Shown piece after piece: positions 22,465 through 42,852 of a stretch of 64,000 nucleotides of DNA (within the stretch, counting starts at the first letter, position 1; each line of letters opens with the position of its first letter). Made by a program: the position numbers and the translations under genes. Origin of the DNA: a phage; sequence record PZ445427.1, one strand, 5' to 3'. The notes under the pieces were generated by a model. The model did not search any database. It was given only the letters and a program-made list of their open reading frames with translations, and was not told the DNA's origin.

Positions 22465-22472
22465 GATTACAT

Positions 22473-23338: not shown

Positions 23339-23403
23339 ATTTATCTAATTTGGAAACATATTTAAAAGTGTTTAAATGAGAATTTTTGAATACTTCTAAA
23401 TAT

Positions 23404-23491: not shown

Positions 23492-23508
23492 AATTAAAGG
23501 TAAAGGAT

Positions 23509-24000
23509 ATGTATATTGATCGGATAATTCAAGAAGCTGCAAATAGGGGTATTATACAGTTGGGTTCACCCGCTGATATAAATAAAGATCTAATATTAGA
23601 AAGCCTCACATTTGGTACAGCTAACTTTGGTCGCGATAGTAATCGTCGATATAGCTTGAAGTTATCTGCACTATCTTTTATCAAGTATAACAAAAGTATT
23701 GGAGAAAAATCCAGCTGTGGTTTTATTTACGCAATAACTAACCCAGCTTGGGATAACTATGTAAAAATTGGTATGTCTTCTGATCCTAAAACAAGATTAA
23801 GAAATTACCAAACCTATTCTCCTTTACGTGATTATAAGTTAATACATTGGTCATTCTGGTTTAATGCTAGAGAAGCGGAGAAAATGCTTCATAATAGCTT
23901 TCCTGAACGGCTTAACGAATGGGTAGTGTTAGACAGAGGTGTAGACGAAATACTTTCCGAGTTTAACAATTTATCCAATAAGCAATTTAAGTCCTGTTAG
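23509..24000 (+). CDS. GIY-YIG nuclease-like protein (T5orf172-type domain)
   Basis: CGFIYAITN ... YVKIGMSSD ... RLRNY arrangement typical of GIY-YIG/T5orf172 domain; sits inside tRNA cluster; stop overlaps tRNA-Glu. Confidence 0.5.
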   Translation: MYIDRIIQEAANRGIIQLGSPADINKDLILESLTFGTANFGRDSNRRYSLKLSALSFIKYNKSIGEKSSCGFIYAITNPAWDNYVKIGMSSDPKTRLRNYQTYSPLRDYKLIHWSFWFNAREAEKMLHNSFPERLNEWVVLDRGVDEILSEFNNLSNKQFKSC

Positions 24001-24067
24001 ACAAACTGGTAAAGTCACTACCCTTTCAAGGTAGGATTTGCGGGTTCGATCCCCGCACAGGACGCCA
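23991..24067 (+). tRNA. tRNA-Glu(TTC)
   Basis: Acceptor gtcctgt/acaggac, anticodon stem ctacc/ggtag loop ctttcaa, T-arm gcggg-ttcgatc-cccgc, CCA. Confidence 0.7.
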
Positions 24068-24075
24068 ATTTCTGC

Positions 24076-24152
24076 ATTCCTAGAGTGTTACTGGACAGCA
24101 TGTCGGTCTCCAAAACCGTACGGTCTAGGTTCGAGTCCTAGTAGGTTTGCCA
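24076..24152 (+). tRNA. tRNA-Trp(CCA), acceptor stem imperfect
   Basis: Anticodon loop ctccaaa, T-arm ctagg-ttcgagt-cctag, CCA; 5' acceptor pairs only 5 of 7. Confidence 0.4.
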
Positions 24153-24158
24153 ATATTT

Positions 24159-24233
24159 GCACCTTTAGCTGAGATGGATTAGCGCTTGCCTGAAGAGCTT
24201 GAGAGGTTCGTTCAATTCGAACAGGGTGCACCA
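24159..24233 (+). tRNA. tRNA-Phe(GAA), weak anticodon stem
   Basis: Acceptor gcacctt/agggtgc, anticodon loop ctgaaga, T-arm gttcg-ttcaatt-cgaac, CCA. Confidence 0.45.
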
Positions 24234-24252
24234 ATTAATCAATATAAGGCTT

Positions 24253-24633
24253 ATGGAAACAAAAACGTGTAATAAGTGTGGAAATACATTTCCCTTGAGT
24301 ACGGACTACTTCTTTAAAAGTGGTAAGCAAGTCTCAGGAAAACAAAAATGGAAACCTATGTGCAAACAATGCGAAAGTATATCTCGTATTGAATACTATA
24401 ATAATACAATTGCCGAGGTTTTTCCTGACTTACATTGTGCTATTTGTGGGTATAACAAGTGTCCACAGGCGATTGATTTCCATCATTTAGAGCAGGATGA
24501 TAAAGAGTTTAATATTAGTGAAGCTAGACGGGGTACGTTTAACAAAGAAAAACTAATAGAAGAGCTTGAGAAATGTGTACCTTTATGCTGTAGGTGTCAC
24601 AGAGAATATCATGCTGGAGTTATTGAGCTTTAA
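24253..24633 (+). CDS. HNH endonuclease-like protein
   Basis: CAICGY...HHL...N...CCRCHREYH HNH/zinc motif; start ATG 24253 (track start 24199 overlaps tRNA). Confidence 0.65.
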   Translation: METKTCNKCGNTFPLSTDYFFKSGKQVSGKQKWKPMCKQCESISRIEYYNNTIAEVFPDLHCAICGYNKCPQAIDFHHLEQDDKEFNISEARRGTFNKEKLIEELEKCVPLCCRCHREYHAGVIEL

Positions 24634-24647
24634 ACTGAAAAATGTAG

Positions 24648-24676
24648 TTGCTTAAATCCTTAAAGTTCTGTATAAT
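24648..24676 (+). promoter_or_regulatory. T5-type early promoter
   Basis: ttgctt 24648..24653, 17 bp, tataat 24671..24676. Confidence 0.6.
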
Positions 24677-24704
24677 TATTATATAAATTGAACTGGAGAA
24701 CTAG

Positions 24705-24893
24705 ATGAAAGCACCTAAACCGAAATTAGTTAAGTTCGACTGCTGTGACACTGAAATCTTATTTACTAAGTTTGGTGAATTTAAGATGTGTGAATGTGGA
24801 ACATGTGGTTATGATCATGGTGATGGATATTATTGCAGAACCCTCGGGCCTTCTGAACTAATCCACTTCTCATGGCCGGAAAGTAAAGAATAA
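24705..24893 (+). CDS. small Cys-rich protein (62 aa)
   Basis: GGAGAA RBS; CCxxC...CxCGxC. Confidence 0.5.
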   Translation: MKAPKPKLVKFDCCDTEILFTKFGEFKMCECGTCGYDHGDGYYCRTLGPSELIHFSWPESKE

Positions 24894-24895
24894 TA

Positions 24896-24971
24896 CGACC
24901 GTTGGCTGAATGGCTTAGGCGGAGGCCTGCAAAACCTCCTTATGTGAGTTCGAATCTCATGCGGTCGTCCA
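24896..24971 (+). tRNA. tRNA-Cys(GCA)
   Basis: Acceptor cgaccgt/gcggtcg, anticodon region ctgcaaa, discriminator U, T-loop ttcgaat, CCA. Confidence 0.6.
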
Positions 24972-24978
24972 AATTTTA

Positions 24979-25061
24979 GGGTCGTTAGCCAAGCGGTTTG
25001 GCGGTGGACTGTTAATCCATGTCGAAAGACAACGTAGGTTCGAATCCTACACGGCCCGCCA
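24979..25061 (+). tRNA. tRNA-Asn(GTT) with unusually long variable arm
   Basis: Acceptor gggtcgt/acggccc, D stem gcca/tggc, anticodon stem gtgga/tccat loop ctgttaa, 13-nt variable arm (gtc-gaaa-gac), T-arm gtagg-ttcgaat-cctac, CCA. Confidence 0.6.
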
Positions 25062-25164
25062 TATTCTGTGTAGAGTTAAGTAAACCGGTAGCCAACCAGC
25101 TATCATTGCTGATATCGAATTCAGTCACAGATACCATTTTTCATTAACAACTGAGGAAATAGAT

Positions 25165-25350
25165 ATGACAACTCGTGCAATTGCTCGACTAGAAGCTGAT
25201 CGTGATAGTCTGATTAATAATATTAAGGTTTGGGATCAAGAAATTGAAAACCAAAAACTGACATTAATTCAAGATATGCAACAACAGAATGCCCGTCGTG
25301 AAGCTCTAAAAGAGGTTGAGGAAGCTATCGAAAAACTCAAAACTGAGTAA
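25165..25350 (+). CDS. hypothetical coiled-coil protein (61 aa)
   Basis: GAGGAAA RBS. Confidence 0.5.
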   Translation: MTTRAIARLEADRDSLINNIKVWDQEIENQKLTLIQDMQQQNARREALKEVEEAIEKLKTE

Positions 25351-25359
25351 ATAAATTAT

Positions 25360-25436
25360 GCGATCGGGGCTGGCTTGGTAATGGTACTCCCCTGTCACGG
25401 GAGAGAATGTGGGTTCGAATCCCATCGGTCGCGCCA
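25360..25436 (+). tRNA. tRNA-Asp(GTC)
   Basis: Acceptor gcgatcg/cggtcgc, anticodon stem ctccc/gggag loop ctgtcac, T-loop ttcgaat, CCA. Confidence 0.75.
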
Positions 25437-25442
25437 AATAAT

Positions 25443-25518
25443 ACATCCATAGCTCAATGGTTAGAGCTACCGCCTCTTAAGCGGAGGGTTCTAGGTTCAA
25501 GTCCTAGTGGGTGTACCA
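25443..25518 (+). tRNA. tRNA-Lys(CTT)
   Basis: Acceptor acatcca/tgggtgt, D stem gctc/gagc, anticodon loop ctcttaa, T-arm ctagg-ttcaagt-cctag, CCA. Confidence 0.65.
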
Positions 25519-25519
25519 A

Positions 25520-25731
25520 ACATCAGAGCAGCGTGATGTACTGCAAAGACCCAAAGTCCGGGGTGGACTTCTTGATTCAAAGGAGCAGGCATTAATTATC
25601 ATTCTAGCGTGGTGGAGAGGGGACACCAGCTTGCCGAGGGTAGAAGCTCGTTCGATTCGAGTGAAAGAATGGTTCTCGTAAATCCGCACAAGTGATAGTA
25701 GGTTCAAGTCCTACCTAGATTGACTCATTAT
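25520..25731 (+). other. unresolved tRNA-like region (two T-arm-like hairpins without canonical acceptor stems)
   Basis: gctcg-ttcgatt-cgagt at 25646..25662 and gtagg-ttcaagt-cctac at 25698..25714; no 7-bp acceptor partner found by eye. Confidence 0.3.
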
Positions 25732-25805
25732 GCGTTCGTAGTTAAAAGGTATAATTTTTGGTTGCCAACCAGAAGTTGAGGGTTCGATTCCCTCCGACCG
25801 CACCA
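25732..25805 (+). tRNA. tRNA-Gly(GCC)
   Basis: Acceptor gcgttcg/cgaccgc (1 mismatch), anticodon stem tttgg/ccaga loop ttgccaa, T-arm gaggg-ttcgatt-ccctc, CCA. Confidence 0.65.
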
Positions 25806-26053
25806 AATTTAGGTTTCTGCTTCCTAGAGAACTGACTCCTAGATAAACAAGGCGATGAGTTTCCGGCCGGTTCTAGTCGCTGAAAATCCTCCCGACCAGG
25901 TAGGTGTAAGTAAACGAAAGTTTACTTATTAAGTAAGTCCGACACATCGGCGGGTGTGTTCTAGTACTTAAAGAAGGTCTCGCAAACTTTCTCGCTAGCA
26001 TGAGTTGATAGCTCGGTGACTTACCTAATAAGTAAATTTATTAAAAAATGTAG

Positions 26054-26082
26054 TTGCTATTTAGCTTAATTCTCTGTATAAT
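26054..26082 (+). promoter_or_regulatory. T5-type early promoter
   Basis: ttgcta 26054..26059, 17 bp, tataat 26077..26082. Confidence 0.6.
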
Positions 26083-26114
26083 ATATTTTATAAAGTGAGT
26101 TAACAAAGAATATT

Positions 26115-26192
26115 CTCCGTGTAGCTCAGTTTGGCCAGAGCGTTTCGTTTGGGGCGATAGGGTCGGGGGTTCAAATCCTCCCACGGAGACCA
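26115..26192 (+). tRNA. tRNA-Pro(TGG)
   Basis: Acceptor ctccgtg/cacggag, anticodon loop tttgggg (G37), variable gggtc, T-loop ttcaaat, CCA. Confidence 0.7.
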
Positions 26193-26198
26193 AACAAT

Positions 26199-26276
26199 TG
26201 CGGGTTAGATCTCTGGTAGAGATCGCTAGTCTCATAAGCTAGAAAGAGGTAGGTTCGATTCCTACACCCGCTTCCA
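26199..26276 (+). tRNA. tRNA-Met/Ile(CAT)
   Basis: Acceptor tgcgggt/acccgct with 1:72 mismatch, anticodon stem ctagt/gctag loop ctcataa, T-arm gtagg-ttcgatt-cctac, CCA. Confidence 0.6.
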
Positions 26277-26297
26277 ATTTAATAGAAGGATTTCGAA

Positions 26298-26462
26298 ATG
26301 AAATTATTTCGTTTAAAAGTAAGTGATCTACGTTCTAGCAAAGATCGTAAGAAGTATCCACTAGCCCATTACGGTAAAGATGAAAATGAAGTGATGGCGG
26401 AATTTGGTATTAATCATCCTTACTTGAAAGTTCACTCTATTAAAGAAGTATACATGTATTAA
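26298..26462 (+). CDS. small hypothetical protein (54 aa)
   Basis: AAGGA RBS; between tRNAs; below track cutoff. Confidence 0.35.
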   Translation: MKLFRLKVSDLRSSKDRKKYPLAHYGKDENEVMAEFGINHPYLKVHSIKEVYMY

Positions 26463-26464
26463 AT

Positions 26465-26542
26465 TGACCGTTAACTCAACTGGATAAGAGTACCGAGCTT
26501 TTACCTCGTAGGTTCTGGGTTCGAATCCCAGACGGTCAACCA
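26465..26542 (+). tRNA. tRNA-Lys(TTT)
   Basis: Acceptor tgaccgt/acggtca, anticodon loop cttttac, T-arm ctggg-ttcgaat-cccag, CCA. Confidence 0.7.
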
Positions 26543-26559
26543 ATTTAAAGGAATTTGTT

Positions 26560-26877
26560 ATGAATATTAACAAAGTTCTAGGAACAATATCAGAAATGTC
26601 TGGTAGAGCTGGAAAACGCTTTACTGAATTATGTATTAAAAATCAAAAAGTACCAGAACATCAATGTCATTATTGTCGAGACTGTGAACAATACCATGAA
26701 ATGTGTGTGGTTGAAGATTGGGTCTGGGATCAGATAAGAAAAGAACAATCCAAAGATATTGTTCTATGTTTTACTTGTATGGAACGACGTTTAGGACGTA
26801 AAATTACTCTTAAAGATCTTAAACATGTTCCCTGTAACGCTCCTTACTTCATTGGTTTTAGAATGGAGAGATTTTGA
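26560..26877 (+). CDS. Cys-rich zinc-ribbon-like protein (105 aa)
   Basis: AAAGGAA RBS; CHYCRDC and CFTC motifs. Confidence 0.55.
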   Translation: MNINKVLGTISEMSGRAGKRFTELCIKNQKVPEHQCHYCRDCEQYHEMCVVEDWVWDQIRKEQSKDIVLCFTCMERRLGRKITLKDLKHVPCNAPYFIGFRMERF

Positions 26878-27010
26878 TGATAATCTGGTTTTACTTAATG
26901 AAACAAAAAGTCAAGCAGTACAACGTATTTTCTGCTGATTTTACTATTGGAATGTTCTTAGCGGGATTATGTGAGTTTCTGTTTGAAGCCTACATCATAG
27001 GAAGTCTTTT

Positions 27011-27084
27011 GCTCGGTTAGTTTAATGGGAGAACCCCGTCTTTACACGGCGGTTGCGATAGTTCGATTCTATCACCGAGTACCA
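27011..27084 (+). tRNA. tRNA-Val(TAC)
   Basis: Acceptor gctcggt/accgagt, anticodon stem ccgtc/ggcgg loop tttacac, T-arm gatag-ttcgatt-ctatc, CCA. Confidence 0.7.
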
Positions 27085-27103
27085 ATTAACTCAAAATAAG
27101 GAA

Positions 27104-27463
27104 TTGCAAATGCAATTATCAAGCAAGGTTCAAGGCTATTTCGGGCATGTAACAATGGAGTTCGCTATCTCTAAAGGTTGGGACTTCGAACAAGATCTAG
27201 CTGAATTCTACAAAGATATTGATCTGAATGTACCGTACATAGGACTCTCTACTGGTCAAGAGATCACAGAAGGCGATGTGTTCAAGGCAAGTCAAGGTGA
27301 GGTAACACCTAGTTTTGCCGAGTTCTGGTTAGGTATTACTTTGAAAGAAGATGCACCGGATGGTGGTGTGGTTATGCAGAGTATGCACTCTGGAAGCTCT
27401 GACTACCTTTTCGTTAGTGACGTTAAGGAAATACAAGAAATCTGCAAAAATGTACTTGCTTGA
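27104..27463 (+). CDS. hypothetical protein (119 aa)
   Basis: AAGGAA RBS. Confidence 0.55.
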   Translation: MQMQLSSKVQGYFGHVTMEFAISKGWDFEQDLAEFYKDIDLNVPYIGLSTGQEITEGDVFKASQGEVTPSFAEFWLGITLKEDAPDGGVVMQSMHSGSSDYLFVSDVKEIQEICKNVLA

Positions 27464-27484
27464 TGCTTAATTTCTTGTTATAAT
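27456..27484 (+). promoter_or_regulatory. T5-type early promoter
   Basis: ttgctt 27456..27461, 17 bp, tataat 27479..27484. Confidence 0.6.
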
Positions 27485-27727
27485 ATTTATATAAATTGAT
27501 GGGGAGAAATCCTCATCAAAGTTCACTAAGGTATTAGCTCGACCTAGGACTGGCTGCCAAAAAGCACGATCCCTACGACTTGGGAGAAGTTCTAGATTAG
27601 TCCACTAGATTCAGTGGCAACTGAATAGTGTATCGGGTTTGTGAAGAGCGGTTATCCTCTACTGGCTAATGTCTGAGGGTAATACGCACACCGAGCTAAT
27701 AGCCTTAGTAAACTAGAAGGAATATCT

Positions 27728-27991
27728 ATGTTTGATCTTAAAGATATGGCTAAGAAACTAATGTCGCAACGTTATCAACAAAGAACCCTCCATAAACGAG
27801 TTTCCGATATGAAGAAACGTTGCAATAATGCTAAGTATTATAATAGTCTTAATAAACTATCTGATGTAGATCTTGCTAAAACTGAAGCAATATATAATCA
27901 CTTAGTAGTAGAATCTGATATAGTGAATAAAGATATTGCTAGGCTAGAAGCTCAGATTGTAGCAACTGTTCTCGATATGTATAGAGAATAA
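27728..27991 (+). CDS. hypothetical protein (87 aa)
   Basis: AGAAGGAA RBS; preceded by about 240-nt ORF-free leader. Confidence 0.5.
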   Translation: MFDLKDMAKKLMSQRYQQRTLHKRVSDMKKRCNNAKYYNSLNKLSDVDLAKTEAIYNHLVVESDIVNKDIARLEAQIVATVLDMYRE

Positions 27992-28000
27992 ATAAATTTT

Positions 28001-28079
28001 GGGGAATGGGTCTGCATGGAGTGGACACCTCGCTTGCACCGAGGACATCAGAACGGTTCGATTCCGTTATTCTCCACCA
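28001..28079 (+). tRNA. tRNA-Ala(TGC)
   Basis: Acceptor ggggaat/attctcc with G3-U70, anticodon stem cctcg/cgagg loop cttgcac, T-arm aacgg-ttcgatt-ccgtt, CCA. Confidence 0.65.
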
Positions 28080-28085
28080 AAATTC

Positions 28086-28161
28086 GGGGTCATAGGTTAT
28101 TTGGTTAAACTTACTGCCTTGCAAGCAGTGGAACTCAGTTCAATTCTGAGTGACTCCACCA
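28086..28161 (+). tRNA. tRNA-Ala(TGC) second copy (divergent sequence)
   Basis: Acceptor ggggtca/tgactcc with G3-U70, anticodon stem actgc/gcagt loop cttgcaa, T-arm ctcag-ttcaatt-ctgag, CCA. Confidence 0.6.
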
Positions 28162-28180
28162 AACAAATTAAGGAAATAAT

Positions 28181-28399
28181 ATGGTATTCTTAGCAGCCTC
28201 TGTAGTTCTTGCAGCTTTAGCACTAGCTATCTATTTTAGAACTATTAAAGATTTAGCTAAAGAAAAGAAAACTTTCTTTACTGATTATTCTTGGGGCGCT
28301 CCATATACCGTCCGCTTTATCAGCTTAGAAGCTATGCTGATAATGGTATTCAGTGGTATAGGTTCCGTTGTTACAGGGTTACTATTTATTTCTAACTAA
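28181..28399 (+). CDS. small membrane protein (72 aa)
   Basis: AAGGAAA RBS; two hydrophobic segments. Confidence 0.5.
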   Translation: MVFLAASVVLAALALAIYFRTIKDLAKEKKTFFTDYSWGAPYTVRFISLEAMLIMVFSGIGSVVTGLLFISN

Positions 28400-28406
28400 A
28401 TAAAAT

Positions 28407-28487
28407 GGGGATGTGGCGAAATTGGCAGACGCGCTAGATTTAGGCTCTAGTCTTCGGGTGTGGGTTCGAGTCCCTCCATCCCTACCA
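28407..28487 (+). tRNA. tRNA-Leu(TAG)
   Basis: Acceptor ggggatg/catccct, anticodon stem ctaga/tctag loop tttaggc, long variable arm, T-loop ttcgagt, CCA. Confidence 0.7.
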
Positions 28488-28661
28488 AACATTGGATTAA
28501 CTCATGATGAAAACTCCTATAACTGATATCTGGTTAGCTGTTAATACATTAACTAAAGAGTATGTGTTTATAGAGTATGGTCAGAGGTATGACCAAAAGA
28601 TGTATAATCTCATACTTCCAGTATCCGCTAATGAAGTTTATGATTTAATCCTGAGATCTAC

Positions 28662-28752
28662 GGAAGAGCAAATCGATTAGGTGACGAAAACCGCTTGGAA
28701 AGTGGCTGACTGGTAAAACGGCTTGAGAGTTCGAATCTCTCTTCTTCCGCCA
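28662..28752 (+). tRNA. tRNA-Ser(GGA)
   Basis: Acceptor ggaagag/ttcttcc, anticodon loop ttggaaa, long variable arm, T-arm gagag-ttcgaat-ctctc, CCA; 91 nt. Confidence 0.55.
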
Positions 28753-28774
28753 AACAACTTACTAGGAAACTAAT

Positions 28775-29131
28775 ATGTCAGAAGTGACAATCTATAATGA
28801 AATGCTTGGCAAAATTTTTACTAGTGTATGCCAAGACCAAGATACTCTTATCTTCATTTGTACTGATGGTAAGAACTATAAGTTTTATCATGAGCAGGAC
28901 TGCTGTGAAGATGTTCATATAGATGATATTATTGGTGATTTACATGACCTTTTAGGTTATCCAATCATAGAAGCAGAGGAAGTAATCACACACGCTACAG
29001 AAGATTGGGATTCAGTAACCCATACATGGTATAAGTTTGCCACAGCTAAAGGCTGTGTAACCGTTAAATGGCATGGTTCTAGTAATGGTTATTACTCTGA
29101 ATCTGTAAACTTTGTAATATACGAACAATAG
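28775..29131 (+). CDS. hypothetical protein (118 aa)
   Basis: AGGAAA RBS. Confidence 0.55.
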   Translation: MSEVTIYNEMLGKIFTSVCQDQDTLIFICTDGKNYKFYHEQDCCEDVHIDDIIGDLHDLLGYPIIEAEEVITHATEDWDSVTHTWYKFATAKGCVTVKWHGSSNGYYSESVNFVIYEQ

Positions 29132-29219
29132 AAGATAGGACGTAGTGGTACGTAACCGGTCTTGAAAACCGGCCCGCTGTAGTGATATGGTGATGGTTCG
29201 ACTCCATTATCTTCTGCCA
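29130..29219 (+). tRNA. tRNA-Ser(TGA)
   Basis: Acceptor agaagat/atcttct perfect, anticodon stem ccggt/accgg loop cttgaaa, long variable arm, T-loop ttcgact, CCA. Confidence 0.75.
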
Positions 29220-29356
29220 AATCTTGAAGTATGCCGGAATCGGTAGACGGGGCTTCCTAAAGGGCGTAAGGGGAACATCCACTCCTCATAAGATACCCGA
29301 AAACGAGGCTGAGATAAATGGTCTATCTCGTGAAGGTTCAAGTCCTTCTGCTTCTT
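29220..29356 (+). other. unresolved tRNA-like structured region
   Basis: Hairpin gagata-aatggtc-tatctc followed by T-arm-like gaagg-ttcaagt-ccttc; no canonical acceptor stem found. Confidence 0.3.
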
Positions 29357-29577
29357 GATATTCAATGGCTCAAAGAGTAACGGTGCACCTTTCTAGAGAA
29401 TTTCCTGGGCGAGAATCCAGGTGTAATCAACTAGTTGTTAGTGTGATGAGTTTCGGAGAGCCGCCACAATTGAAAATTCGTACTCGTCTTGAGCTTCGTG
29501 CAATAGAAGATAACTTGATTAGTATTCTAGAAAATGCTATTTGAGGATGGTTTCGCTAACCCTGCGAGTTTTCAATT

Positions 29578-29654
29578 GTGGCTATATCATAATTGGTTAA
29601 TGATCCTGATTGTGAATCAGGCCTATGTGGATTCGAGTTCCACTAGCCACCCCA
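29578..29654 (+). tRNA. tRNA-His(GTG)
   Basis: Acceptor gtggcta/tagccac, anticodon stem cctga/tcagg loop ttgtgaa, T-arm gtgga-ttcgagt-tccac, CCA. Confidence 0.75.
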
Positions 29655-29660
29655 AATATT

Positions 29661-29735
29661 GCGTCCTTATTTCAACGGAAAGAATGTAAAGCTACGAACT
29701 TTACGATCGGGGTTCGATTCCCTGAGGATGCACCA
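29661..29735 (+). tRNA. tRNA-Arg(ACG)
   Basis: Acceptor gcgtcct/aggatgc, anticodon stem taaag/cttta loop ctacgaa, T-arm cgggg-ttcgatt-ccctg, CCA. Confidence 0.7.
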
Positions 29736-29759
29736 ATTAACTTAAACAGGAAAATAATA

Positions 29760-29960
29760 ATGGCTGATTTCTGTAAAGAATGCTCTATCGATATGTGGGG
29801 CAAAGATACACAAGATCTTTCTGGTCTTATCACTGAAGCCGAGGTTAAAGAGGGCTACGGTGCTGTAGTAATCTGCGAAGGTTGTGGTATTATCCGTGTT
29901 GATCATGAAGGCAAACGCCTTGAAGAACCTGAGCCAATCGCAACGGTTCCTGTAGAGTAA
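29760..29960 (+). CDS. small zinc-ribbon-like protein (66 aa)
   Basis: ATG 29760 after AGGAAAA; CxxC...CxxC; track ORF 29625.. overlaps tRNAs and is rejected as start. Confidence 0.5.
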   Translation: MADFCKECSIDMWGKDTQDLSGLITEAEVKEGYGAVVICEGCGIIRVDHEGKRLEEPEPIATVPVE

Positions 29961-29968
29961 AGAATTAT

Positions 29969-30044
29969 TGGGATGTAGATCAATTGGCAGATCGTCGGCC
30001 TCTGACTCCGAAGGTTCCACGTTCGATCCGTGGCATCCCAGCCA
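29969..30044 (+). tRNA. tRNA-Gln(CTG)
   Basis: U1-A72 acceptor tgggatg/catccca, anticodon loop ctctgac, T-arm ccacg-ttcgatc-cgtgg, 3' end CCCAGCCA. Confidence 0.7.
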
Positions 30045-30050
30045 AACAAT

Positions 30051-30126
30051 TGGAGAGTAGTGTAACGGTTAGCACAACGGCCTTTGACTCCGTTAATGGT
30101 AGGTTCGATTCCTCCTTCTCCAGCCA
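30051..30126 (+). tRNA. tRNA-Gln(TTG)
   Basis: U1-A72 acceptor tggagag/ttctcca, anticodon loop ctttgac, T-loop ttcgatt, CCA. Confidence 0.65.
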
Positions 30127-30132
30127 ATTTAT

Positions 30133-30207
30133 GCGTGATTAGTTCAGTGGCTAGAATAACTGGCTTCCAACCAGTAGACACGAGTTCGACTCTCGTATCC
30201 CGCACCA
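30133..30207 (+). tRNA. tRNA-Gly(TCC)
   Basis: Acceptor gcgtgat/atcccgc (1 mismatch), anticodon stem actgg/ccagt loop cttccaa, T-arm acgag-ttcgact-ctcgt, CCA. Confidence 0.7.
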
Positions 30208-30223
30208 AATATAAGGAAACGTT

Positions 30224-30466
30224 ATGGACGTTTTTGAGTTTCGTAATAAAAGCCCCAATAGGCGCGTTTTGATTATTGGTGAAACATATCGAGCTTATGA
30301 GCAAGAAGATGGTTCGGTTTTACTAAACGATGAAAAGCAAGGTTATAGCTTTTATCCAGAAGAAACGTATGAAGAATTTCGTACCAAGTTTCTCTTACCA
30401 GACTGGCTAGCAGTAGCCGAGCAACGAGAATCCGAAGATGGCAGAAAACCTAAAATTAAAGGTTGA
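30224..30466 (+). CDS. hypothetical protein (80 aa)
   Basis: AAGGAAA RBS. Confidence 0.55.
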   Translation: MDVFEFRNKSPNRRVLIIGETYRAYEQEDGSVLLNDEKQGYSFYPEETYEEFRTKFLLPDWLAVAEQRESEDGRKPKIKG

Positions 30467-30612
30467 CAAACAAAAGAAATACGTTGAGGTTGAATTAGGC
30501 GAAGAACGCTTAAAGCTATCCTTCGAGTTTCTTCAGCAGTTGGCGATGACAGTAATGTCTGATAAGTCTCCTGTATTTGAGAAAGAAATCCCGTTGAAAT
30601 GACGGGTTTATT

Positions 30613-30687
30613 GCTCCTAAAGCATTGCTGGCGATGCAGTTGCCTTGTAAGCATCTGAACCGGGTTCGATTCCTGGTGGGAGCACCA
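30613..30687 (+). tRNA. tRNA-Thr(TGT)
   Basis: Acceptor gctccta/tgggagc, D stem gcat/atgc, anticodon loop cttgtaa, T-arm ccggg-ttcgatt-cctgg, CCA. Confidence 0.7.
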
Positions 30688-30702
30688 AATTTAAAAATTC
30701 AT

Positions 30703-30731
30703 TTGCCTTCTCTCTTATTTCTTGTTATAAT
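30703..30731 (+). promoter_or_regulatory. T5-type early promoter
   Basis: ttgcct 30703..30708, 17 bp, tataat 30726..30731. Confidence 0.55.
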
Positions 30732-30761
30732 ATTTATATAAATTAATGAGAGGGAAACCAA

Positions 30762-31055
30762 ATGAAACGTTATCTTTCTGTCGTATTCCAAACGGGTGGT
30801 CAACGCTACACTTACGAATTTCCTGAGTCTTGGAAAATCAAAGAGGGTGATCAAGTTGTTGTGTTAACACCTCGTGAAGGCTTCAAAGTAGTAACGGTTA
30901 AACAAGTATTTCCAAAAGATCACGAACCATCTAAGTCTCTTAACTATAAGATGATTCATGGTCTGGTACGAAAAGTACCTAGAACAGAAGTCGAAGTAGA
31001 TAAAACTGGAGAAGCTAAATACCAGTATACCTCTTACTTAGACGAAATGATGTAA
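30762..31055 (+). CDS. hypothetical protein (97 aa)
   Basis: GAGAGGGAAA RBS. Confidence 0.55.
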   Translation: MKRYLSVVFQTGGQRYTYEFPESWKIKEGDQVVVLTPREGFKVVTVKQVFPKDHEPSKSLNYKMIHGLVRKVPRTEVEVDKTGEAKYQYTSYLDEMM

Positions 31056-31056
31056 T

Positions 31057-31132
31057 GCTCCGATAGTTCAAACGGTTAGAACAGGCGACCGATAATCGTC
31101 AAATCTTGGTTCGATCCCAAGTCGGAGTACCA
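31057..31132 (+). tRNA. tRNA-Ile(GAT)
   Basis: Acceptor gctccga/tcggagt, anticodon stem ggcga/tcgtc loop ccgataa, T-arm cttgg-ttcgatc-ccaag, CCA. Confidence 0.6.
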
Positions 31133-31138
31133 AATTAT

Positions 31139-31211
31139 AGTTAGTTGGCAGAGTGGTTATGCACCTCCTTCATACGGAGTGACTACAGTGGTTCAAATCC
31201 ACTACTAACTA
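31139..31211 (+). tRNA. tRNA-Met/Ile(CAT), CCA not encoded
   Basis: Acceptor agttagt/actaact perfect, anticodon loop ttcatac, T-arm agtgg-ttcaaat-ccact. Confidence 0.6.
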
Positions 31212-35695: not shown

Positions 35696-36394
35696 ATGAG
35701 AATCATTTCAAAGTTCAATGATGTATACGATTTGCAGAATAGTTTATTTGATCCAGATCGTGTCTGGGAGCGTAAAACTGAAGAGCTGCTAGTAAAAGTA
35801 ACTGACGATGTAGAAAAGAATATCGTTCATAATCGTCAGGTGTTTCGTGAGGGTTCCTTATCCTTCCGTGGTGACTTCGAATACTCAGTAAATCCACTGT
35901 TTATTGCAGGCGAAGTTTACTGGTTACATGAACTGTCCTGCTGGCATCCAGCATTCAGTTTCAAAACGTTCAACATCGATGCTGTGTTCGATAAAATGGA
36001 AGAAATGGGATTACATGCCCGTTCTTACTTACTAGATAAGAATCGTGGTGATGTTCGTGAAACCATGCGAGATATGTTGGTTGAAGCAAAACCTAAAGCA
36101 GAACGTATCTTATCTGAACTGCGCGTACCAATTGCATATGTGAAAGGTATTAAGAAGAACGATAACGATGATGTTCGTAACTTCGTAATTCAGACAAACA
36201 TTCGTTTCCATCAGTCAGGTATTCCGTGGCAGGAAATTGAAAGTAACTTATACCGTTTACACCAAGTTCTCGAACAGTATATCTTCGGTGTACTAGGAAC
36301 TGGTGAGCCTGATATGATTACCGTATCAGATAAAGACAGGTTAGCAGCACATGGATTTGATACAAAAACTTCTTTCAGGAATATGGCAAGGTAA
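35696..36394 (+). CDS. hypothetical protein (232 aa)
   Basis: AAAAGGA RBS. Confidence 0.55.
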   Translation: MRIISKFNDVYDLQNSLFDPDRVWERKTEELLVKVTDDVEKNIVHNRQVFREGSLSFRGDFEYSVNPLFIAGEVYWLHELSCWHPAFSFKTFNIDAVFDKMEEMGLHARSYLLDKNRGDVRETMRDMLVEAKPKAERILSELRVPIAYVKGIKKNDNDDVRNFVIQTNIRFHQSGIPWQEIESNLYRLHQVLEQYIFGVLGTGEPDMITVSDKDRLAAHGFDTKTSFRNMAR

Positions 36395-36800
36395 GTGGTA
36401 TATCCTGGGAGCTGGTCTTGCGATAGGTATCGGATTCGGTGCTTATCACTTAGTAAATAAGGTTGAAACCCTAGCTGGGGATCTTGCAATTGCGACTAAA
36501 AAGATCTCCACTCTAGAGACTTCCCTTAATAAGGTGAAAACTGAGAGTGAACTTCGTGAGACTCGAATGAACCAGTATTTCACAATGAATAATATTTCGC
36601 AAGCAGATCTAGACAAAAAGATTAAGCAGTTAGATAAAGCTCTTAGTCGTCAAGATGTTATCGCTGCAAAGCCTGGATTGGTAACATTAATTGCTAAAAA
36701 GCAGAATAAAGAGTTCGAGGAAAGATTAGCATGTTTAACTGGAAACTTGGAGTACTGCTCGCAGCCGCAATCACAATCACAGGCTGTGCAGAAGAAATAA
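36351..36800 (+). CDS. membrane-anchored coiled-coil protein (i-spanin-like)
   Basis: N-terminal TM WYILGAGLAIGIGFGAY then coiled-coil; overlaps next gene. Confidence 0.4.
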   Translation: MDLIQKLLSGIWQGKWYILGAGLAIGIGFGAYHLVNKVETLAGDLAIATKKISTLETSLNKVKTESELRETRMNQYFTMNNISQADLDKKIKQLDKALSRQDVIAAKPGLVTLIAKKQNKEFEERLACLTGNLEYCSQPQSQSQAVQKK

Positions 36801-37084
36801 AACCAGAGCCATCTCATGAGTTAAAGCAAGCTCATGTTGACTGGCCTAAAGGACTTCAGCCGTGTAGCTTTGATTTCAAATTCGAAAAGAAATTAGCTAC
36901 AAATGGTGAAGATGGCGTAGTAGTTGTTGTACCTTACAAAGATTGGAATGCAAAAGCAAAATGCGAGGAAGCAGTTTACTCTTACATTTCACGACTGACC
37001 GGTATGGTTTGCTTCTATCGTCAAGATTTACAAGAAAAACGTTGCTTAGTTTACTATCCACCCATTACAAATAGGAAAGATTAA
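36731..37084 (+). CDS. lipoprotein (o-spanin-like), overlapping upstream gene by 70 nt
   Basis: GAGGAAAG RBS; signal peptide with lipobox LLAAAITITGC. Confidence 0.45.
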   Translation: MFNWKLGVLLAAAITITGCAEEIKPEPSHELKQAHVDWPKGLQPCSFDFKFEKKLATNGEDGVVVVVPYKDWNAKAKCEEAVYSYISRLTGMVCFYRQDLQEKRCLVYYPPITNRKD

Positions 37085-38448: not shown

Positions 38449-38457
38449 GTAGTTTTA

Positions 38458-38489
38458 AGCCAGAGTTTAACGACTCTGGCTTTTCTTTT
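38458..38489 (+). terminator. rho-independent terminator
   Basis: agccagag ... ctctggct hairpin then TTTCTTTT. Confidence 0.6.
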
Positions 38490-38551: not shown

Positions 38552-38580
38552 TTGTAATTTTCCTCTAGAATTAGTATAAT
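38552..38580 (+). promoter_or_regulatory. sigma70 promoter TTGTAA-17-TATAAT (lysis cassette)
   Basis: ttgtaa 38552..38557, tataat 38575..38580. Confidence 0.5.
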
Positions 38581-38604: not shown

Positions 38605-39261
38605 GTGGAAAAGTTTCTACAACTATTAACGGTACTGCTCCAAGAAGCGAAAGATCCAGCTTCGCTACTAAAACGTCTGCTAACTATCTTAGTTGCTGTC
38701 ATTATTTTCTTGTTTGTAAGTAACACTAGCGAGGTGATGTCATTTTTAAAGACTTTCTCCACGTCTGCGGTTTTACAGGATGTTCAAACCCAAAGGATAG
38801 ATAACTTTCCTAATGTAGCACGAGAAAAGAGCATGGTTCTTTTCTCTCAGACGGGTGCGGATGCTGTTTTTGTAGTCAAGTATAAACCCGATGCTATAAA
38901 CGATTATTCGAACATTATTGCATGGGAAAGCAATGCGCAATTGGATAGGGCTGACTTGGCCGATAAAGCAGTAAACAAGACGTCTGAACTTTATAGACGT
39001 CACCTGGAAGGCTTTAACTACGCTTCGGATTTAAGTGTAAAAGTAAATAAATATATGGGGTCAAATATACCCGCGTTTAAGAACGTTACTTTTAATTACG
39101 TCTATACTTGTCCGTATTTCAACCTAAATAATATCTATGCTGGATACATAGGTATTGCCTGGAAGGATAAACCCGTAGATACAGCTGACTCGGAACAATT
39201 TAAGGAGTACTTAACAAAGCTTTGCTCACCGCAGCAAAGATCATTAGGTAGATCTATATGA
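38605..39261 (+). CDS. holin (T5-type)
   Basis: GTG start after AGAGGAGG; 218 aa with single N-terminal TM; immediately upstream of and overlapping endolysin. Confidence 0.7.
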   Translation: MEKFLQLLTVLLQEAKDPASLLKRLLTILVAVIIFLFVSNTSEVMSFLKTFSTSAVLQDVQTQRIDNFPNVAREKSMVLFSQTGADAVFVVKYKPDAINDYSNIIAWESNAQLDRADLADKAVNKTSELYRRHLEGFNYASDLSVKVNKYMGSNIPAFKNVTFNYVYTCPYFNLNNIYAGYIGIAWKDKPVDTADSEQFKEYLTKLCSPQQRSLGRSI

Positions 39262-39671
39262 GTTTTAAATTTGGTAAAAATAGCGAAAAACAATTAGCAA
39301 CTGTTAAGCCCGAGCTACAAAAGGTAGCTCGTAGGGCTTTAGAACTATCCCCATATGATTTCACAATCGTACAAGGTATTCGTACAGTAGCACAAAGTGC
39401 CCAAAACATTGCTAATGGTACTTCATTTTTGAAAGACCCTAGCAAAAGTAAGCATGTAACTGGAGACGCTATCGATTTTGCACCATATATTAATGGTAAG
39501 ATTGATTGGAAAGATCTGGAAGCATTTTGGGCTGTTAAGAAGGCTTTTGAACAAGCTGGTAAGGAACTTGGTGTCAAACTTCGTTTTGGTGCCGACTGGA
39601 ATAGTTCTGGTGATTATCATGATGAGATCGATCGTGGTACTTACGACGGTGGTCACGTAGAATTAGTCTGA
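39258..39671 (+). CDS. lys: endolysin, L-alanyl-D-glutamate peptidase (M15-type)
   Basis: 137 aa; Zn-binding H...D...H pattern (SKHVTGDAIDF ... GGHVELV) as in T5 Lys. Confidence 0.8.
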   Translation: MSFKFGKNSEKQLATVKPELQKVARRALELSPYDFTIVQGIRTVAQSAQNIANGTSFLKDPSKSKHVTGDAIDFAPYINGKIDWKDLEAFWAVKKAFEQAGKELGVKLRFGADWNSSGDYHDEIDRGTYDGGHVELV

Positions 39672-39746: not shown

Positions 39747-40163
39747 ATGTTTGCAGAACTATTCACCATGATATTACTAGGAATATGGAAAATAAGCCTA
39801 GTAGTTTTCATCTTAATGATAATTCTCACTGTTGTCGCACTAGTTACCCAAAATGATACATTAAAGAAAGTCGTTCATGGGCTAGAGTATATAATTATGG
39901 GCACATTCGGCGTTTGCAAATGCAACTGCCAGAGGAATACGAAATATTGTTGGCTTTGGATGGAGTTAGAGAACTGCATCACAGTAGCCCTGGCTGTCTC
40001 ATTCGGTATGATTCTTATGGCCCTTACTCTAGCATTGATACCACTGATGTTAGCTGGGGGAGTCACGGCTTATTTCACCCTTTTCTCCCCTATACTTATG
40101 TATTCAATATATCCAATAACTATGTACTTAGTTAGGAAGAGATTCCCACATCAAGCACACTAA
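39747..40163 (+). CDS. polytopic membrane protein (138 aa)
   Basis: AGGAGAAAG RBS; four hydrophobic segments. Confidence 0.55.
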   Translation: MFAELFTMILLGIWKISLVVFILMIILTVVALVTQNDTLKKVVHGLEYIIMGTFGVCKCNCQRNTKYCWLWMELENCITVALAVSFGMILMALTLALIPLMLAGGVTAYFTLFSPILMYSIYPITMYLVRKRFPHQAH

Positions 40164-42278: not shown

Positions 42279-42646
42279 TGGAACGTGAAGAACGTTATGT
42301 AGTTATAAAGCTGTCTGATATTGAGAAAGCCCTAGAATTAGGGCATATCACTCAGAGTAACTTTACCACTTTGGAACATATCTTGTCCAAACTATGGTAT
42401 AGTCGAGCACAACGTGGTAAAGAAGATCTCAAAACCGTCGTGGTAGAGCATGATTGGCCAGAGTACGAAGAAGTCTGGAAAATGCTAGAGAATCGTGTTG
42501 GTTTTGAGCAAGCACGACAGGAAGAACTTGACAAAGGATATCAAGAAGCGAAAGAGCACCATGAGGTTTATGATGAAATATTCAAACTTCGTGGTATTAG
42601 TAGTTATTGTCAGGGTTGGAATAAATATGCGGAGGAAGTTCTGTAA
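42278..42646 (+). CDS. hypothetical protein (122 aa)
   Basis: ATGA overlap coupling. Confidence 0.5.
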   Translation: MEREERYVVIKLSDIEKALELGHITQSNFTTLEHILSKLWYSRAQRGKEDLKTVVVEHDWPEYEEVWKMLENRVGFEQARQEELDKGYQEAKEHHEVYDEIFKLRGISSYCQGWNKYAEEVL

Positions 42647-42852
42647 TGAAGAGATTACTACTAGTATCAGTACTAATACTAGCTGGATGTGATCCTTATG
42701 ATAATAGTATGAGATTCACCGCAGAAGATACTAGACACTTGTGTGATGTAGCTGGAGGTGAGCTGGATAATTCCAGCATCCAAATTGGACTCACAAAAGG
42801 TATATTCTACGATAGTTATACTATTACCTCAACTTGTGTAAGGAATAAGTAA
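42646..42852 (+). CDS. small lipoprotein (68 aa)
   Basis: Signal peptide with lipobox LILAGC. Confidence 0.5.
   Translation: MKRLLLVSVLILAGCDPYDNSMRFTAEDTRHLCDVAGGELDNSSIQIGLTKGIFYDSYTITSTCVRNK

What the first reader, a model, noticed from the sequence alone, without database searches (positions are those of the whole stretch)
36351..37084. Spanin-like membrane protein/lipoprotein pair located 1.5 kb away from holin-endolysin
A TM-plus-coiled-coil protein and an overlapping lipoprotein (lipobox ITGC) have the architecture of i-spanin/o-spanin pairs but are separated from the holin-endolysin genes (38605..39671) by dNMP kinase and a ClpP-like gene; a second small lipoprotein lies at 42646..42852.
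Basis: inference. Interest (0 to 1): 0.4.

Follow-up and report, generated by a model that had tools for sequence, protein, structure and literature searches.

The report
T5-type spanin gene pair (known)

Summary
The window is a T5-like phage (Demerecviridae), 99.6% identical in DNA to Salmonella phage KKP_3831. ORF 36351..36800 (149 aa) has one N-terminal transmembrane helix and a heptad-periodic periplasmic helix. ORF 36731..37084 (117 aa) has a lipoprotein signal (ITG|C, Ala at +2). They overlap by 70 nt and end 1520 nt before the holin-endolysin pair.

The pair is 90-91% identical to T5.045/T5.044. It belongs to the "T5 family" of overlapped two-component spanins in Kongari et al. 2018, whose EPS7 i-spanin differs from this one by one residue. 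Several GenBank records label it i-spanin/o-spanin.

Both proteins are remote homologues of T4 PseT.3/PseT.2, the pair shown to replace lambda Rz/Rz1. The two cysteines essential in PseT.2 are invariant here (C94, C105). The order spanins, dNMP kinase, Clp-like protease, holin, endolysin is conserved across Demerecviridae, so the 1.5-kb gap is normal for this family.

The second lipoprotein (42646..42852) is not a spanin. It has no partner and no C-terminal membrane anchor, carries Asp at +2, and resembles the o-spanin only in its signal peptide.

I found no direct experiment on any T5-type pair. Novelty: already known. Interest: low.

The parts
36351..36800 (+). i-spanin gene (149 aa). Predicted layout: short cytoplasmic N-terminus (1-16), transmembrane helix (about 17-35), periplasmic helical domain with a heptad-periodic stretch (about 36-75), the conserved K107-P108-G-L110 motif, and a C-terminal tail with Cys128 and Cys136.
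   Evidence: ORF. Hydropathy and cysteines. Heptad test. PHROG 739 at 7.5e-38. 90% identity to T5.045. BLASTP against T4 PseT.3 gives E 2e-6. Alignment A2. The SpaninDB EPS7 entry differs by one residue.
36731..37084 (+). o-spanin gene (117 aa). Lipoprotein signal peptide 1-18, lipobox ITG|C19, Ala at +2 (outer-membrane sorting), and a 99-aa mature domain with Cys45, Cys78, Cys94 and Cys105.
   Evidence: ORF. Lipobox scan. PHROG 812 at 4.2e-30. 91% identity to T5.044. BLASTP against T4 PseT.2 gives E 2e-7. A 52-sequence alignment has invariant C19, W38, P39, C94, Y96, R97, L100, E102 and C105. All homologues carry precomputed Pfam PF26831. The AF2 model has pLDDT 79.7, with a beta-hairpin at 50-66 and a helix at 69-96. 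BFVD fold hits include several phage proteins named o-spanin, Rz1 or PseT.2.
36731..36800 (+). 70-nt overlap read in two frames. It encodes the i-spanin C-terminal tail (including Cys128 and Cys136) and the o-spanin signal peptide and lipobox.
   Evidence: Coordinates. The same 70-nt overlap is present in T5 and IrmaTschudi. It is 88 nt in a Klebsiella phage and 34 nt in My1, always at offset 2 mod 3. Kongari 2018 reports a 70-bp overlap for the T5 family.
38457..38482 (+). Terminator-like hairpin (11-bp stem followed by a T run) immediately after the Clp-like protease gene. It probably ends the transcription unit that holds the spanins.
   Evidence: Pattern scan. The T5 RefSeq record annotates a terminator at the equivalent place, between T5.042 and the holin. 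This is a consensus match only and has not been shown to function.
38552..38580 (+). Sigma-70-like promoter (TTGTAA-17-TATAAT) 25 nt upstream of the holin start codon.
   Evidence: Pattern scan, 10 of 12 matches. T5 RefSeq annotates a promoter at the equivalent place. Consensus match only.
38605..39261 (+). Holin of the T4 T type. It is the functional partner acting upstream of the spanins in the lysis pathway.
   Evidence: Pfam PF11031 Phage_holin_T at 1e-114. PHROG 860 holin at 5.8e-79.
39258..39671 (+). Endolysin, an M15-type peptidase 137 aa long like T5 Lys. Its degradation of the cell wall is what is thought to release the spanins to act.
   Evidence: PHROG 465 endolysin at 4.8e-54. Pfam Peptidase_M15_4 at 8.6e-6. 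Annotated as endolysin in T5 and IrmaTschudi at the same position.

Best explanation
The two genes encode the two-component spanin of a T5-like phage.

The first protein is anchored in the inner membrane by its N-terminal helix and projects a mostly helical, partly coiled-coil domain into the periplasm. The second is made as a lipoprotein precursor, lipidated on Cys19, and sorted to the inner leaflet of the outer membrane because residue +2 is Ala. Their periplasmic domains bind each other and form a bridge across the periplasm that is threaded through the cell-wall mesh.

At the end of infection the T-type holin permeabilises the inner membrane and the M15 endolysin degrades the wall. The freed spanin complexes can then move, cluster and change shape, pulling the two membranes together so that they fuse and the outer membrane is breached.

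Disulfide bonds are expected to matter, as in T4. Cys94 and Cys105 of the o-spanin correspond to the two cysteines essential in T4 PseT.2.

- **Shown here:** the sequence anatomy, membership of the T5 spanin family, and remote homology to the T4 pair.
- **Shown by others, for T4 and lambda only:** complementation of lambda Rz/Rz1 and the cysteine requirement.
- **Inferred:** everything about complex formation, membrane fusion and timing for this particular pair.
For: - **Anatomy.** One transmembrane helix plus heptad periodicity in protein 1. A lipobox with Ala at +2 in protein 2. A 70-nt overlap.
- **Families.** PHROG 739 and 812, which T4 PseT.3 and a T4-like PseT.2 also hit at about 1e-37. 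All 60 profile hits, T5-like and T4-like, carry the same Pfam PF26831.
- **Identity to catalogued members.** 90% and 91% to T5.045 and T5.044. One residue different from the EPS7 i-spanin in SpaninDB. T5 family, overlapped, 70 bp (PMC6139136).
- **Homology to the tested T4 pair.** Pairwise E-values are 2e-6 and 2e-7. C94, Y96, R97, L100, E102 and C105 are invariant over 52 sequences, and the pairwise alignment puts C94 and C105 opposite the two C-terminal cysteines of PseT.2, published as C87 and C98. K107-P108-x-L110 is invariant in the i-spanins.
- **Experiments on T4.** T4 pseT.3 and pseT.2 complement lambda RzamRz1am, and both PseT.2 cysteines are essential (PMC6139136).
- **Fold.** The o-spanin model matches predicted structures of phage proteins named o-spanin, Rz1 or PseT.2.
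- **Conserved linkage** with holin and endolysin across three Demerecviridae lineages.
- **Size.** Periplasmic lengths of 114 + 99 residues fall within the 62-300 range reported for two-component spanins.
Against: - I found no experiment on any T5-family spanin. Searches for T5 locus tags and for T5-like spanin work returned only annotations. Kongari 2018 states that essentially all experimental work was done on lambda.
- The genes appear to sit in a different transcription unit from holin-endolysin, together with a dNMP kinase and a protease. Co-regulation with lysis is therefore assumed, not shown.
- Identity to the tested T4 proteins is only 24-29%.
- The T5 type has extra cysteines that T4 lacks (two in the i-spanin, two in the o-spanin), so the disulfide scheme may differ.
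- No Pfam or NCBIfam model in the local libraries recognises either protein, and no solved structure exists.
Confidence: 0.9

Rival explanations
1. The pair is a real envelope protein pair, but its job is not lysis. It could, for example, be an early-expressed envelope modifier or superinfection-exclusion system that merely shares ancestry with spanins.
For: It lies in a unit with early-type metabolic genes (dNMP kinase, protease). A terminator-like and a promoter-like site separate it from the holin. I found no direct experiment on a T5-type pair.
Against: It belongs to the same PHROG and Pfam families as T4 PseT.3/PseT.2, which functionally replace lambda Rz/Rz1. The cysteines essential for that function are invariant. 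The window has a separate Cor/Llp-type exclusion lipoprotein next to the receptor-binding protein. No other spanin candidate turned up in the 64-kb window in a lipobox scan. In T4 the spanin genes are also unlinked from holin and endolysin.
Confidence: 0.05
2. The overlapping 117-aa reading frame is a chance ORF and only the first gene is real.
For: It starts inside another gene, and many GenBank records leave it unannotated or call it hypothetical.
Against: It is conserved as an intact ORF in 553 phage records and in T4-like phages at about 25% identity. The lipobox Cys, W-P motif and C-x-Y-R-x2-L-x-E-x2-C motif are invariant. The AF2 model is confident over residues 35-110. Kongari 2018 explains that gene callers commonly miss overlapped o-spanins.
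Confidence: 0.01
3. The small lipoprotein at 42646..42852 is a second o-spanin or a unimolecular spanin, as its PHROG label 'Rz-like spanin' suggests, giving the phage a redundant outer-membrane disruption system.
For: PHROG 6073 is labelled 'Rz-like spanin' (2.6e-26). Several RefSeq records carry that name. It has a genuine lipobox (LAG|C) and two conserved periplasmic cysteines.
Against: It has no C-terminal hydrophobic segment, so it is not a unimolecular spanin. The upstream ORF has no hydrophobic stretch on inspection of its sequence and the downstream gene is a phosphoesterase, so no membrane partner gene is apparent next to it; I ran no hydropathy calculation on either. Residue +2 is Asp, or Asn in two homologues, which in enterobacteria predicts inner-membrane retention (established knowledge; alignment). 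Profile comparison with the o-spanin family aligns only the signal peptide, columns 1-20. Fold search finds only its own family. It is absent from T5 itself.
Confidence: 0.03

Closest known systems
T5 family of two-component spanins (T5.045/T5.044; SpaninDB, Kongari et al. 2018, PMC6139136)
   Same: Same gene pair. Identity to T5 is 90% and 91%, and the i-spanin differs from the EPS7 entry by one residue. The overlapped architecture, 70-nt overlap, lengths (149/147 and 117 aa) and neighbours (dnk, protease, holin, lys) are all the same.
   Different: The first 10 residues of the i-spanin differ from T5. T5 has an HNH homing endonuclease (hegF) just upstream; here the upstream gene overlaps the i-spanin start by 44 nt. 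Nothing functional differs.
T4 PseT.3 / PseT.2 spanins (experimentally validated)
   Same: Same PHROG families (739, 812) and, for the o-spanin, the same Pfam family (PF26831). The i-spanin motif K-P-G-L-V is shared. So are the o-spanin motifs H-x2-W-P and C-Y-Y-R-x2-L-x-E-x2-C, which include both cysteines essential in T4. The o-spanin is predicted to be a folded beta/alpha domain, unlike the disordered, proline-rich lambda Rz1.
   Different: Identity is only 24-29%, below the 40% family threshold of Kongari 2018. T4 genes overlap by 4 nt and are classed as 'separated', against 70 nt here. The T4 i-spanin has no periplasmic cysteine, whereas the T5 type has two in a C-terminal extension that T4 lacks. 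The T5-type o-spanin has an extra cysteine pair (C45, C78). T4 spanins are far from holin and endolysin; here they are 1.5 kb away.
Lambda Rz / Rz1
   Same: Same topological scheme: a type II inner-membrane protein with a coiled coil, plus an outer-membrane lipoprotein, with periplasmic cysteines. The role is presumed to be the same. The T4 homologues complement lambda RzRz1 mutants.
   Different: No sequence similarity was detected. The local Pfam library returned no significant family for either protein. Rz1 is fully embedded in Rz and is short; per Kongari 2018 its periplasmic domain is unstructured, and its proline richness is from general knowledge. Here the genes only overlap, and the o-spanin is a 99-aa domain with 6% proline.

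Membership tests
Two-component spanin (criteria of Kongari et al. 2018) | i-spanin is an integral inner-membrane protein with a single N-terminal transmembrane domain and a periplasmic C-terminal domain | tested here: met
   One hydrophobic segment at 17-35 and none later. The charge difference across the helix is weak (+1 versus 0). Topology is predicted, not measured.
Two-component spanin (criteria of Kongari et al. 2018) | o-spanin has an outer-membrane lipoprotein signal: a lipobox ending in Cys and no inner-membrane retention residue at +2 | tested here: met
   I-T-G-C19 with Ala at +2. The lipobox Cys is invariant in 52 homologues.
Two-component spanin (criteria of Kongari et al. 2018) | The two genes are adjacent in an embedded, overlapped or separated arrangement | tested here: met
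   Overlapped by 70 nt. The arrangement is conserved in T5, IrmaTschudi, a Klebsiella phage and My1.
Two-component spanin (criteria of Kongari et al. 2018) | At least one periplasmic cysteine available for intermolecular disulfides (507 of 528 systems have one) | tested here: met
   Two in the i-spanin (C128, C136) and four in the mature o-spanin (C45, C78, C94, C105). All are conserved within Demerecviridae.
Two-component spanin (criteria of Kongari et al. 2018) | Required for outer-membrane disruption: mutants give Mg2+-stabilised spherical cells, or the pair complements lambda RzamRz1am | not testable with these tools
   No experiment on a T5-type pair was found in the searched literature.
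Two-component spanin (criteria of Kongari et al. 2018) | The two periplasmic domains interact physically to span the periplasm | not testable with these tools
   Only single-chain structure prediction was available. The combined periplasmic length of 213 residues is within the published range.
T5 spanin family (SpaninDB; at least 40% identity over at least 40% of the length) | Sequence identity to family members above the threshold, for both components | tested here: met
   90% and 91% to T5. 148 of 149 residues identical to the EPS7 i-spanin.
T4 PseT.3/PseT.2 family in the strict sense (Kongari 40% threshold) | At least 40% identity to the T4 proteins | tested here: not met
   24-33% over the aligned parts. 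It is a sister family, not a member at this threshold.
PseT.3/PseT.2 superfamily (PHROG 739/812; Pfam PF26831 for the o-spanin) | Significant profile match to the same families as the T4 proteins | tested here: met
   The window proteins score 7.5e-38 and 4.2e-30. T4 PseT.3 scores 1.3e-37 and PEi26 PseT.2 scores 4.6e-37 against the same PHROGs. PF26831 is recorded on all T5-like and T4-like hits. That model is not in the local Pfam copy, so I could not score the window protein against it myself.
PseT.3/PseT.2 superfamily (PHROG 739/812; Pfam PF26831 for the o-spanin) | The two C-terminal cysteines of the o-spanin that are essential in T4 (C87, C98) are present | tested here: met
   C94 and C105 align opposite the two C-terminal cysteines of T4 PseT.2, published as C87 and C98, and are invariant in 52 sequences.
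Lambda Rz/Rz1 family | Sequence match to lambda-type Rz and Rz1 families | tested here: not met
   The local Pfam library returned no significant family for either protein. The 'Rz-like' label in PHROG and RefSeq is functional, not a statement of homology.
Unimolecular spanin (T1 gp11 type), considered for the lipoprotein at 42646..42852 | [quoted passage not shown] | tested here: not met
   A lipobox is present (LAG|C15). There is no hydrophobic segment outside the signal peptide.
o-spanin, considered for the lipoprotein at 42646..42852 | Outer-membrane sorting signal, an adjacent i-spanin partner gene, and/or homology to an o-spanin family | tested here: not met
   Residue +2 is Asp, or Asn in two homologues. 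The upstream neighbour shows no hydrophobic stretch on inspection of its sequence and the downstream one is a phosphoesterase; no hydropathy calculation was run on either. hhalign against the o-spanin alignment matches only the signal peptide.

The most novel reading that the evidence does not exclude
The small, apparently inner-membrane-retained lipoprotein at 42646..42852 may be an accessory periplasmic factor. It is present in about 147 T5-like phage records and in My1 at the same slot, but absent from T5. It could tune lysis, for instance by acting on the large periplasmic domain of the T-type holin or on the spanin complex, or it could provide a second, receptor-independent superinfection exclusion. 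Separately, the T5-specific extra cysteines (i-spanin C128 and C136; o-spanin C45 and C78) could give a disulfide wiring different from T4 and lambda, possibly a link between the two different subunits. My evidence neither supports nor excludes either idea.
Probability: 0.07. Interest if true: 0.4.

Novelty: already known. Interest (0 to 1): 0.08.

Why it matters
It matters little beyond correct annotation. The pair is a catalogued member of a published spanin family, so it adds no new biology.

Three points have modest practical value:
- The call confirms that sequence reading alone can recover overlapped o-spanin genes, which gene callers often miss. Many GenBank records of this family still say 'hypothetical protein' or annotate a truncated ORF.
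- The T5 family remains untested experimentally. It is a folded-domain o-spanin with six periplasmic cysteines, and would be a useful third model beside lambda and T4 for how disulfides and domain structure drive membrane fusion.
- The 'Rz-like spanin' label on the unrelated 68-aa lipoprotein family (PHROG 6073) looks wrong and is spreading through automated annotation.

Tried and rejected
- **Local family libraries.** Pfam-A and NCBIfam gave nothing significant for either spanin or for the small lipoprotein.
- **Solved structures, by sequence.** No relative was found. The only weak hits were to generic coiled coils for the i-spanin profile and a non-significant GspC hit for the o-spanin profile.
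- **Solved structures, by fold.** Foldseek of the o-spanin model against the PDB gave no match below E = 2.
- **Fold of the small lipoprotein.** Foldseek against BFVD returned only its own family, so no function could be inferred.
- **First protein-database search.** The single o-spanin sequence found only 5 close relatives because of the word index. Repeating with an alignment that included T4-type sequences found 60.
- **Discarded record.** Salmonella phage GE_vB_N8 (L007) looked like a divergent 37% hit. It is an 'UNVERIFIED' record with frameshifts through both spanin genes, so I dropped it.
- **Literature.** Searches for experiments on T5-type spanins (T5 locus tags, CRISPRi-ART, transposon essentiality maps) found none. 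The two phage Tn-seq preprints cover other phages.
- **Cor/Llp hypothesis for the small lipoprotein.** I considered that it might be the Llp/Cor-type receptor blocker and rejected it. The window has a separate Cor-type lipoprotein next to the receptor-binding protein, and the two share only signal-peptide similarity.
- **RNA elements.** An Rfam scan shows no RNA element in or near the finding.
Full report
**What the window is.** The 734-bp region matches 444 phage records by megablast, 434 of them over at least 80% of its length. The best match is Salmonella phage KKP_3831 at 99.6%. Nearly all named hits are T5-like phages of Salmonella and Escherichia; the record examined in detail, IrmaTschudi, is Demerecviridae, genus Epseptimavirus. 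The rest of the window fits this: 27 tRNA genes at 15.7-31.2 kb, and a receptor-binding protein with a divergent Cor-type lipoprotein near 61-63 kb.

**Checking the observation.** ORF 36351..36800 (+) encodes 149 aa and ORF 36731..37084 (+) encodes 117 aa.
- The first protein has one hydrophobic segment, YILGAGLAIGIGFGAYHLV at residues 17-35, with a Kyte-Doolittle maximum of 1.55. Net charge is +1 on the N-terminal side and 0 just after the helix. The N-in orientation is therefore inferred mainly from family homology.
- Residues about 36-65 show heptad periodicity. An a/d hydrophobic contrast of 0.85 is reached by only 2 of 2000 shuffles.
- Kongari et al. 2018 report a Pepcoil coiled coil at 33-75 for the EPS7 protein, which differs from this one by a single residue.
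- A family profile picks up only weak PDB hits, all of them coiled coils: Lpp, tetherin, reovirus sigma-1 and fibritin.
- The second protein starts MFNWKLGVLLAAAITITG|C, a standard lipoprotein signal with lipobox ITGC, Cys19 and Ala at +2.
- The genes overlap by 70 nt. The second begins 380 nt into the first, at offset 2 mod 3.
- Downstream lie a dNMP kinase (PHROG 139, Pfam DNMK) and a Clp-like protease (PHROG 1827, Pfam CLP_protease). After these come a T-type holin (Pfam Phage_holin_T, 1e-114) and an M15 endolysin (PHROG 465).
- The o-spanin stop and the holin start are 1520 nt apart.

All elements of the observation are therefore correct.

**What it is.** The two proteins hit PHROG 739 (7.5e-38) and PHROG 812 (4.2e-30), both labelled 'Rz-like spanin'.
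- The same gene pair, with the same coordinates relative to its neighbours, is annotated i-spanin/o-spanin in Escherichia phage IrmaTschudi.
- In phage T5 it is annotated 'Rz-like spanin' as T5.045 and T5.044. The deposited notes already point to similarity with T4 PseT.3 and PseT.2. Identity to the T5 proteins is 90% and 91%.
- Kongari et al. 2018 (PMC6139136) define a 'T5 family' of both i-spanins and o-spanins. Members are T5, EPS7, Stitch, SPC35, AKFV33, FFH1, DT57C, My1, phiR201 and Shivani.
- They describe the architecture as overlapped by 70 bp. In Shivani and phiR201 a homing endonuclease separates the two genes.
- Their supplementary table lists the EPS7 i-spanin sequence, which differs from the window protein only at residue 47.

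The finding is therefore a rediscovery of a catalogued system.

**Relationship to the experimentally tested T4 spanins.**
- BLASTP of the window proteins against T4 PseT.3 and PseT.2 gives E = 2e-6 and 2e-7.
- T4 PseT.3 and a T4-like PseT.2 hit the same PHROGs at about 1e-37.
- A profile search with a mixed alignment returned 60 proteins, T5-like and T4-like. All carry the same precomputed Pfam family, PF26831. That model is absent from the local Pfam copy, so I cannot name it.
- In a 52-sequence o-spanin alignment the invariant positions are M1, C19 (the lipidated Cys), W38, P39, C94, Y96, R97, L100, E102 and C105.
- In the pairwise alignment C94 and C105 lie opposite the two C-terminal cysteines of T4 PseT.2, published as C87 and C98.
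- Kongari et al. showed that pseT.3 and pseT.2 complement lambda RzamRz1am, and that both C87 and C98 are essential.
- In the i-spanin alignment the motif K107-P108-x-L110 is invariant between the T5 and T4 types.
- T5-type proteins differ in three ways. They have a C-terminal i-spanin extension with two cysteines (R-L-A-C-x-T-G-N-x3-C), and an extra o-spanin cysteine pair (C45, C78). Both are conserved in all Demerecviridae sequences examined and absent from T4-like ones. Identity of 24-29% is also below the 40% family threshold used by Kongari.
- The T5 pair is thus a sister family of the T4 pair rather than a member of it.

**Structure.** An AlphaFold2 model of the o-spanin from the 52-sequence alignment has mean pLDDT 79.7. 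Values are around 90 over most of residues 41-110, with a dip to 77 at 51-60. It shows a beta-hairpin (50-55, 61-66) followed by a long helix (69-96). No solved structure resembles it. Among predicted viral structures, the hits with a name attached include o-spanins of a Providencia phage and a Pseudomonas phage, Rz1 of a T4-like Shigella phage and PseT.2 of Acinetobacter phage 133; many other top hits are unnamed. This is a folded o-spanin, unlike the short lambda Rz1.

**Is the separation from holin-endolysin unusual?** No.
- The order [T5.047-like gene]-i-spanin-o-spanin-dnk-protease-holin-endolysin recurs in T5 (Tequintavirus), IrmaTschudi (Epseptimavirus), a Klebsiella T5-like phage and Pectobacterium phage My1 (Mccorquodalevirinae).
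- The overlap is 70, 70, 88 and 34 nt in those four genomes, and the relative frame is always the same.
- A terminator-like hairpin (38457..38482) and a promoter-like site (38552..38580) lie between the protease and the holin. T5's record annotates a terminator and a promoter at the same place.
- The spanins are therefore probably transcribed separately from holin and endolysin. These are consensus matches only.
- In T4 the spanin genes are entirely unlinked from t and e.

**Mechanism.**
- *Best-supported model, by inference from lambda and T4.* The i-spanin sits in the inner membrane and the lipidated o-spanin in the outer membrane. They bind through their periplasmic domains across the wall mesh. 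After the holin fires and the endolysin removes the wall, the complexes are free to cluster and collapse, fusing the two membranes.
- *What is shown here.* The anatomy and the homology.
- *What is shown elsewhere.* Function for the T4 homologues only.
- *What is inferred.* Complex formation, fusion and the role of the six cysteines in this pair.
- I found no experiment on a T5-type spanin.

**The second lipoprotein (42646..42852).** It is real: MKRLLLVSVLILAG|C15, with conserved C33 and C64 and an A-G-G motif. It hits PHROG 6073, which is labelled 'Rz-like spanin'. I do not think it is a spanin, for these reasons:
- It has no C-terminal hydrophobic segment.
- The upstream ORF has no hydrophobic stretch on inspection of its sequence and the downstream gene is a phosphoesterase. 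I ran no hydropathy calculation on either.
- Residue +2 is Asp in six of eight sequences and Asn in two. In enterobacteria this is the classical inner-membrane retention signal (established knowledge; alignment).
- Profile comparison with the o-spanin family aligns only the signal peptide. It is also unrelated to the Cor-type lipoprotein in the window.
- It occurs in only 147 phage records. It is absent from T5, where the two flanking phosphatase genes abut. In My1 it sits in the same slot.
- Its AF2 model (pLDDT 70.4; a helix plus a hairpin) matches only its own family.

Its function is unknown. The PHROG label looks like a mis-annotation that automated pipelines now propagate.

**Verdict.** The system is already known as the T5 family of overlapped two-component spanins, a sister to T4 PseT.3/PseT.2. 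Interest is low. The one gap is that nobody appears to have tested this family experimentally.

Noticed in passing
window 42646..42852 (+): A 68-aa lipoprotein (LAG|C15, Asp at +2, conserved C33 and C64) that PHROG 6073 and several RefSeq records call 'Rz-like spanin'. It has no partner gene and no C-terminal anchor, and resembles the o-spanin only in its signal peptide. It sits between two phosphatase genes, in the same slot as in phage My1, and is absent from T5. Function unknown; the label is probably wrong.
   Followed up: yes
window 61377..61643 (-) and 61727..63508 (+): A third lipoprotein (88 aa, LTG|C) hits the Cor superinfection-exclusion family (PHROG 1119, 1.2e-23). It lies divergently next to the receptor-binding tail protein (PHROG 4815, 1.1e-268). 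This is the usual T5-like receptor-binding protein plus Llp/Cor arrangement.
   Followed up: partly
window 38605..39261 (+): The holin is a T4 T-type holin (Pfam PF11031, 1e-114). T5-like phages thus share the holin and both spanin components with T4-like phages, but use a different endolysin (an M15 peptidase rather than a lysozyme). I did not look in the window for a counterpart of the T4 antiholin RI.
   Followed up: partly
window 39747..40163 (+): A 138-aa ORF with several hydrophobic stretches lies immediately downstream of the endolysin. It is the positional counterpart of T5.039, which is annotated with four transmembrane domains. It hits PHROG 5944, of unknown function. Its position next to the lysis genes is suggestive, but I did not examine it.
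   Followed up: no
L006 (Klebsiella phage vB_Kpn_K7_rec7) 4001..4330: The deposited record annotates a truncated 'Rz-like spanin' (4175..4330, 51 aa) that lacks the signal peptide and lipobox. The full o-spanin ORF starts at 4001. This is an example of the wrong-start problem described by Kongari 2018.
   Followed up: yes
window 35696..36394 (+); L002 (T5) 9246..9743: The conserved upstream gene of unknown function (PHROG 4243, T5.047-like) overlaps the i-spanin start by 44 nt here. In T5 an HNH homing endonuclease (hegF) is inserted between the two. In Shivani and phiR201 a GIY-YIG endonuclease splits the spanin pair itself (PMC6139136). This neighbourhood appears to be a hot spot for homing endonuclease insertion.
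   Followed up: partly
window 15683..31211 (+): A cluster of 27 tRNA genes (Rfam RF00005), as is typical of T5-like phages.
   Followed up: no
L007 (Salmonella phage GE_vB_N8, MG969413.1): This 'UNVERIFIED' 51-kb record carries the spanin region broken by several frameshifts. That points to poor sequence quality rather than a divergent relative.
   Followed up: yes
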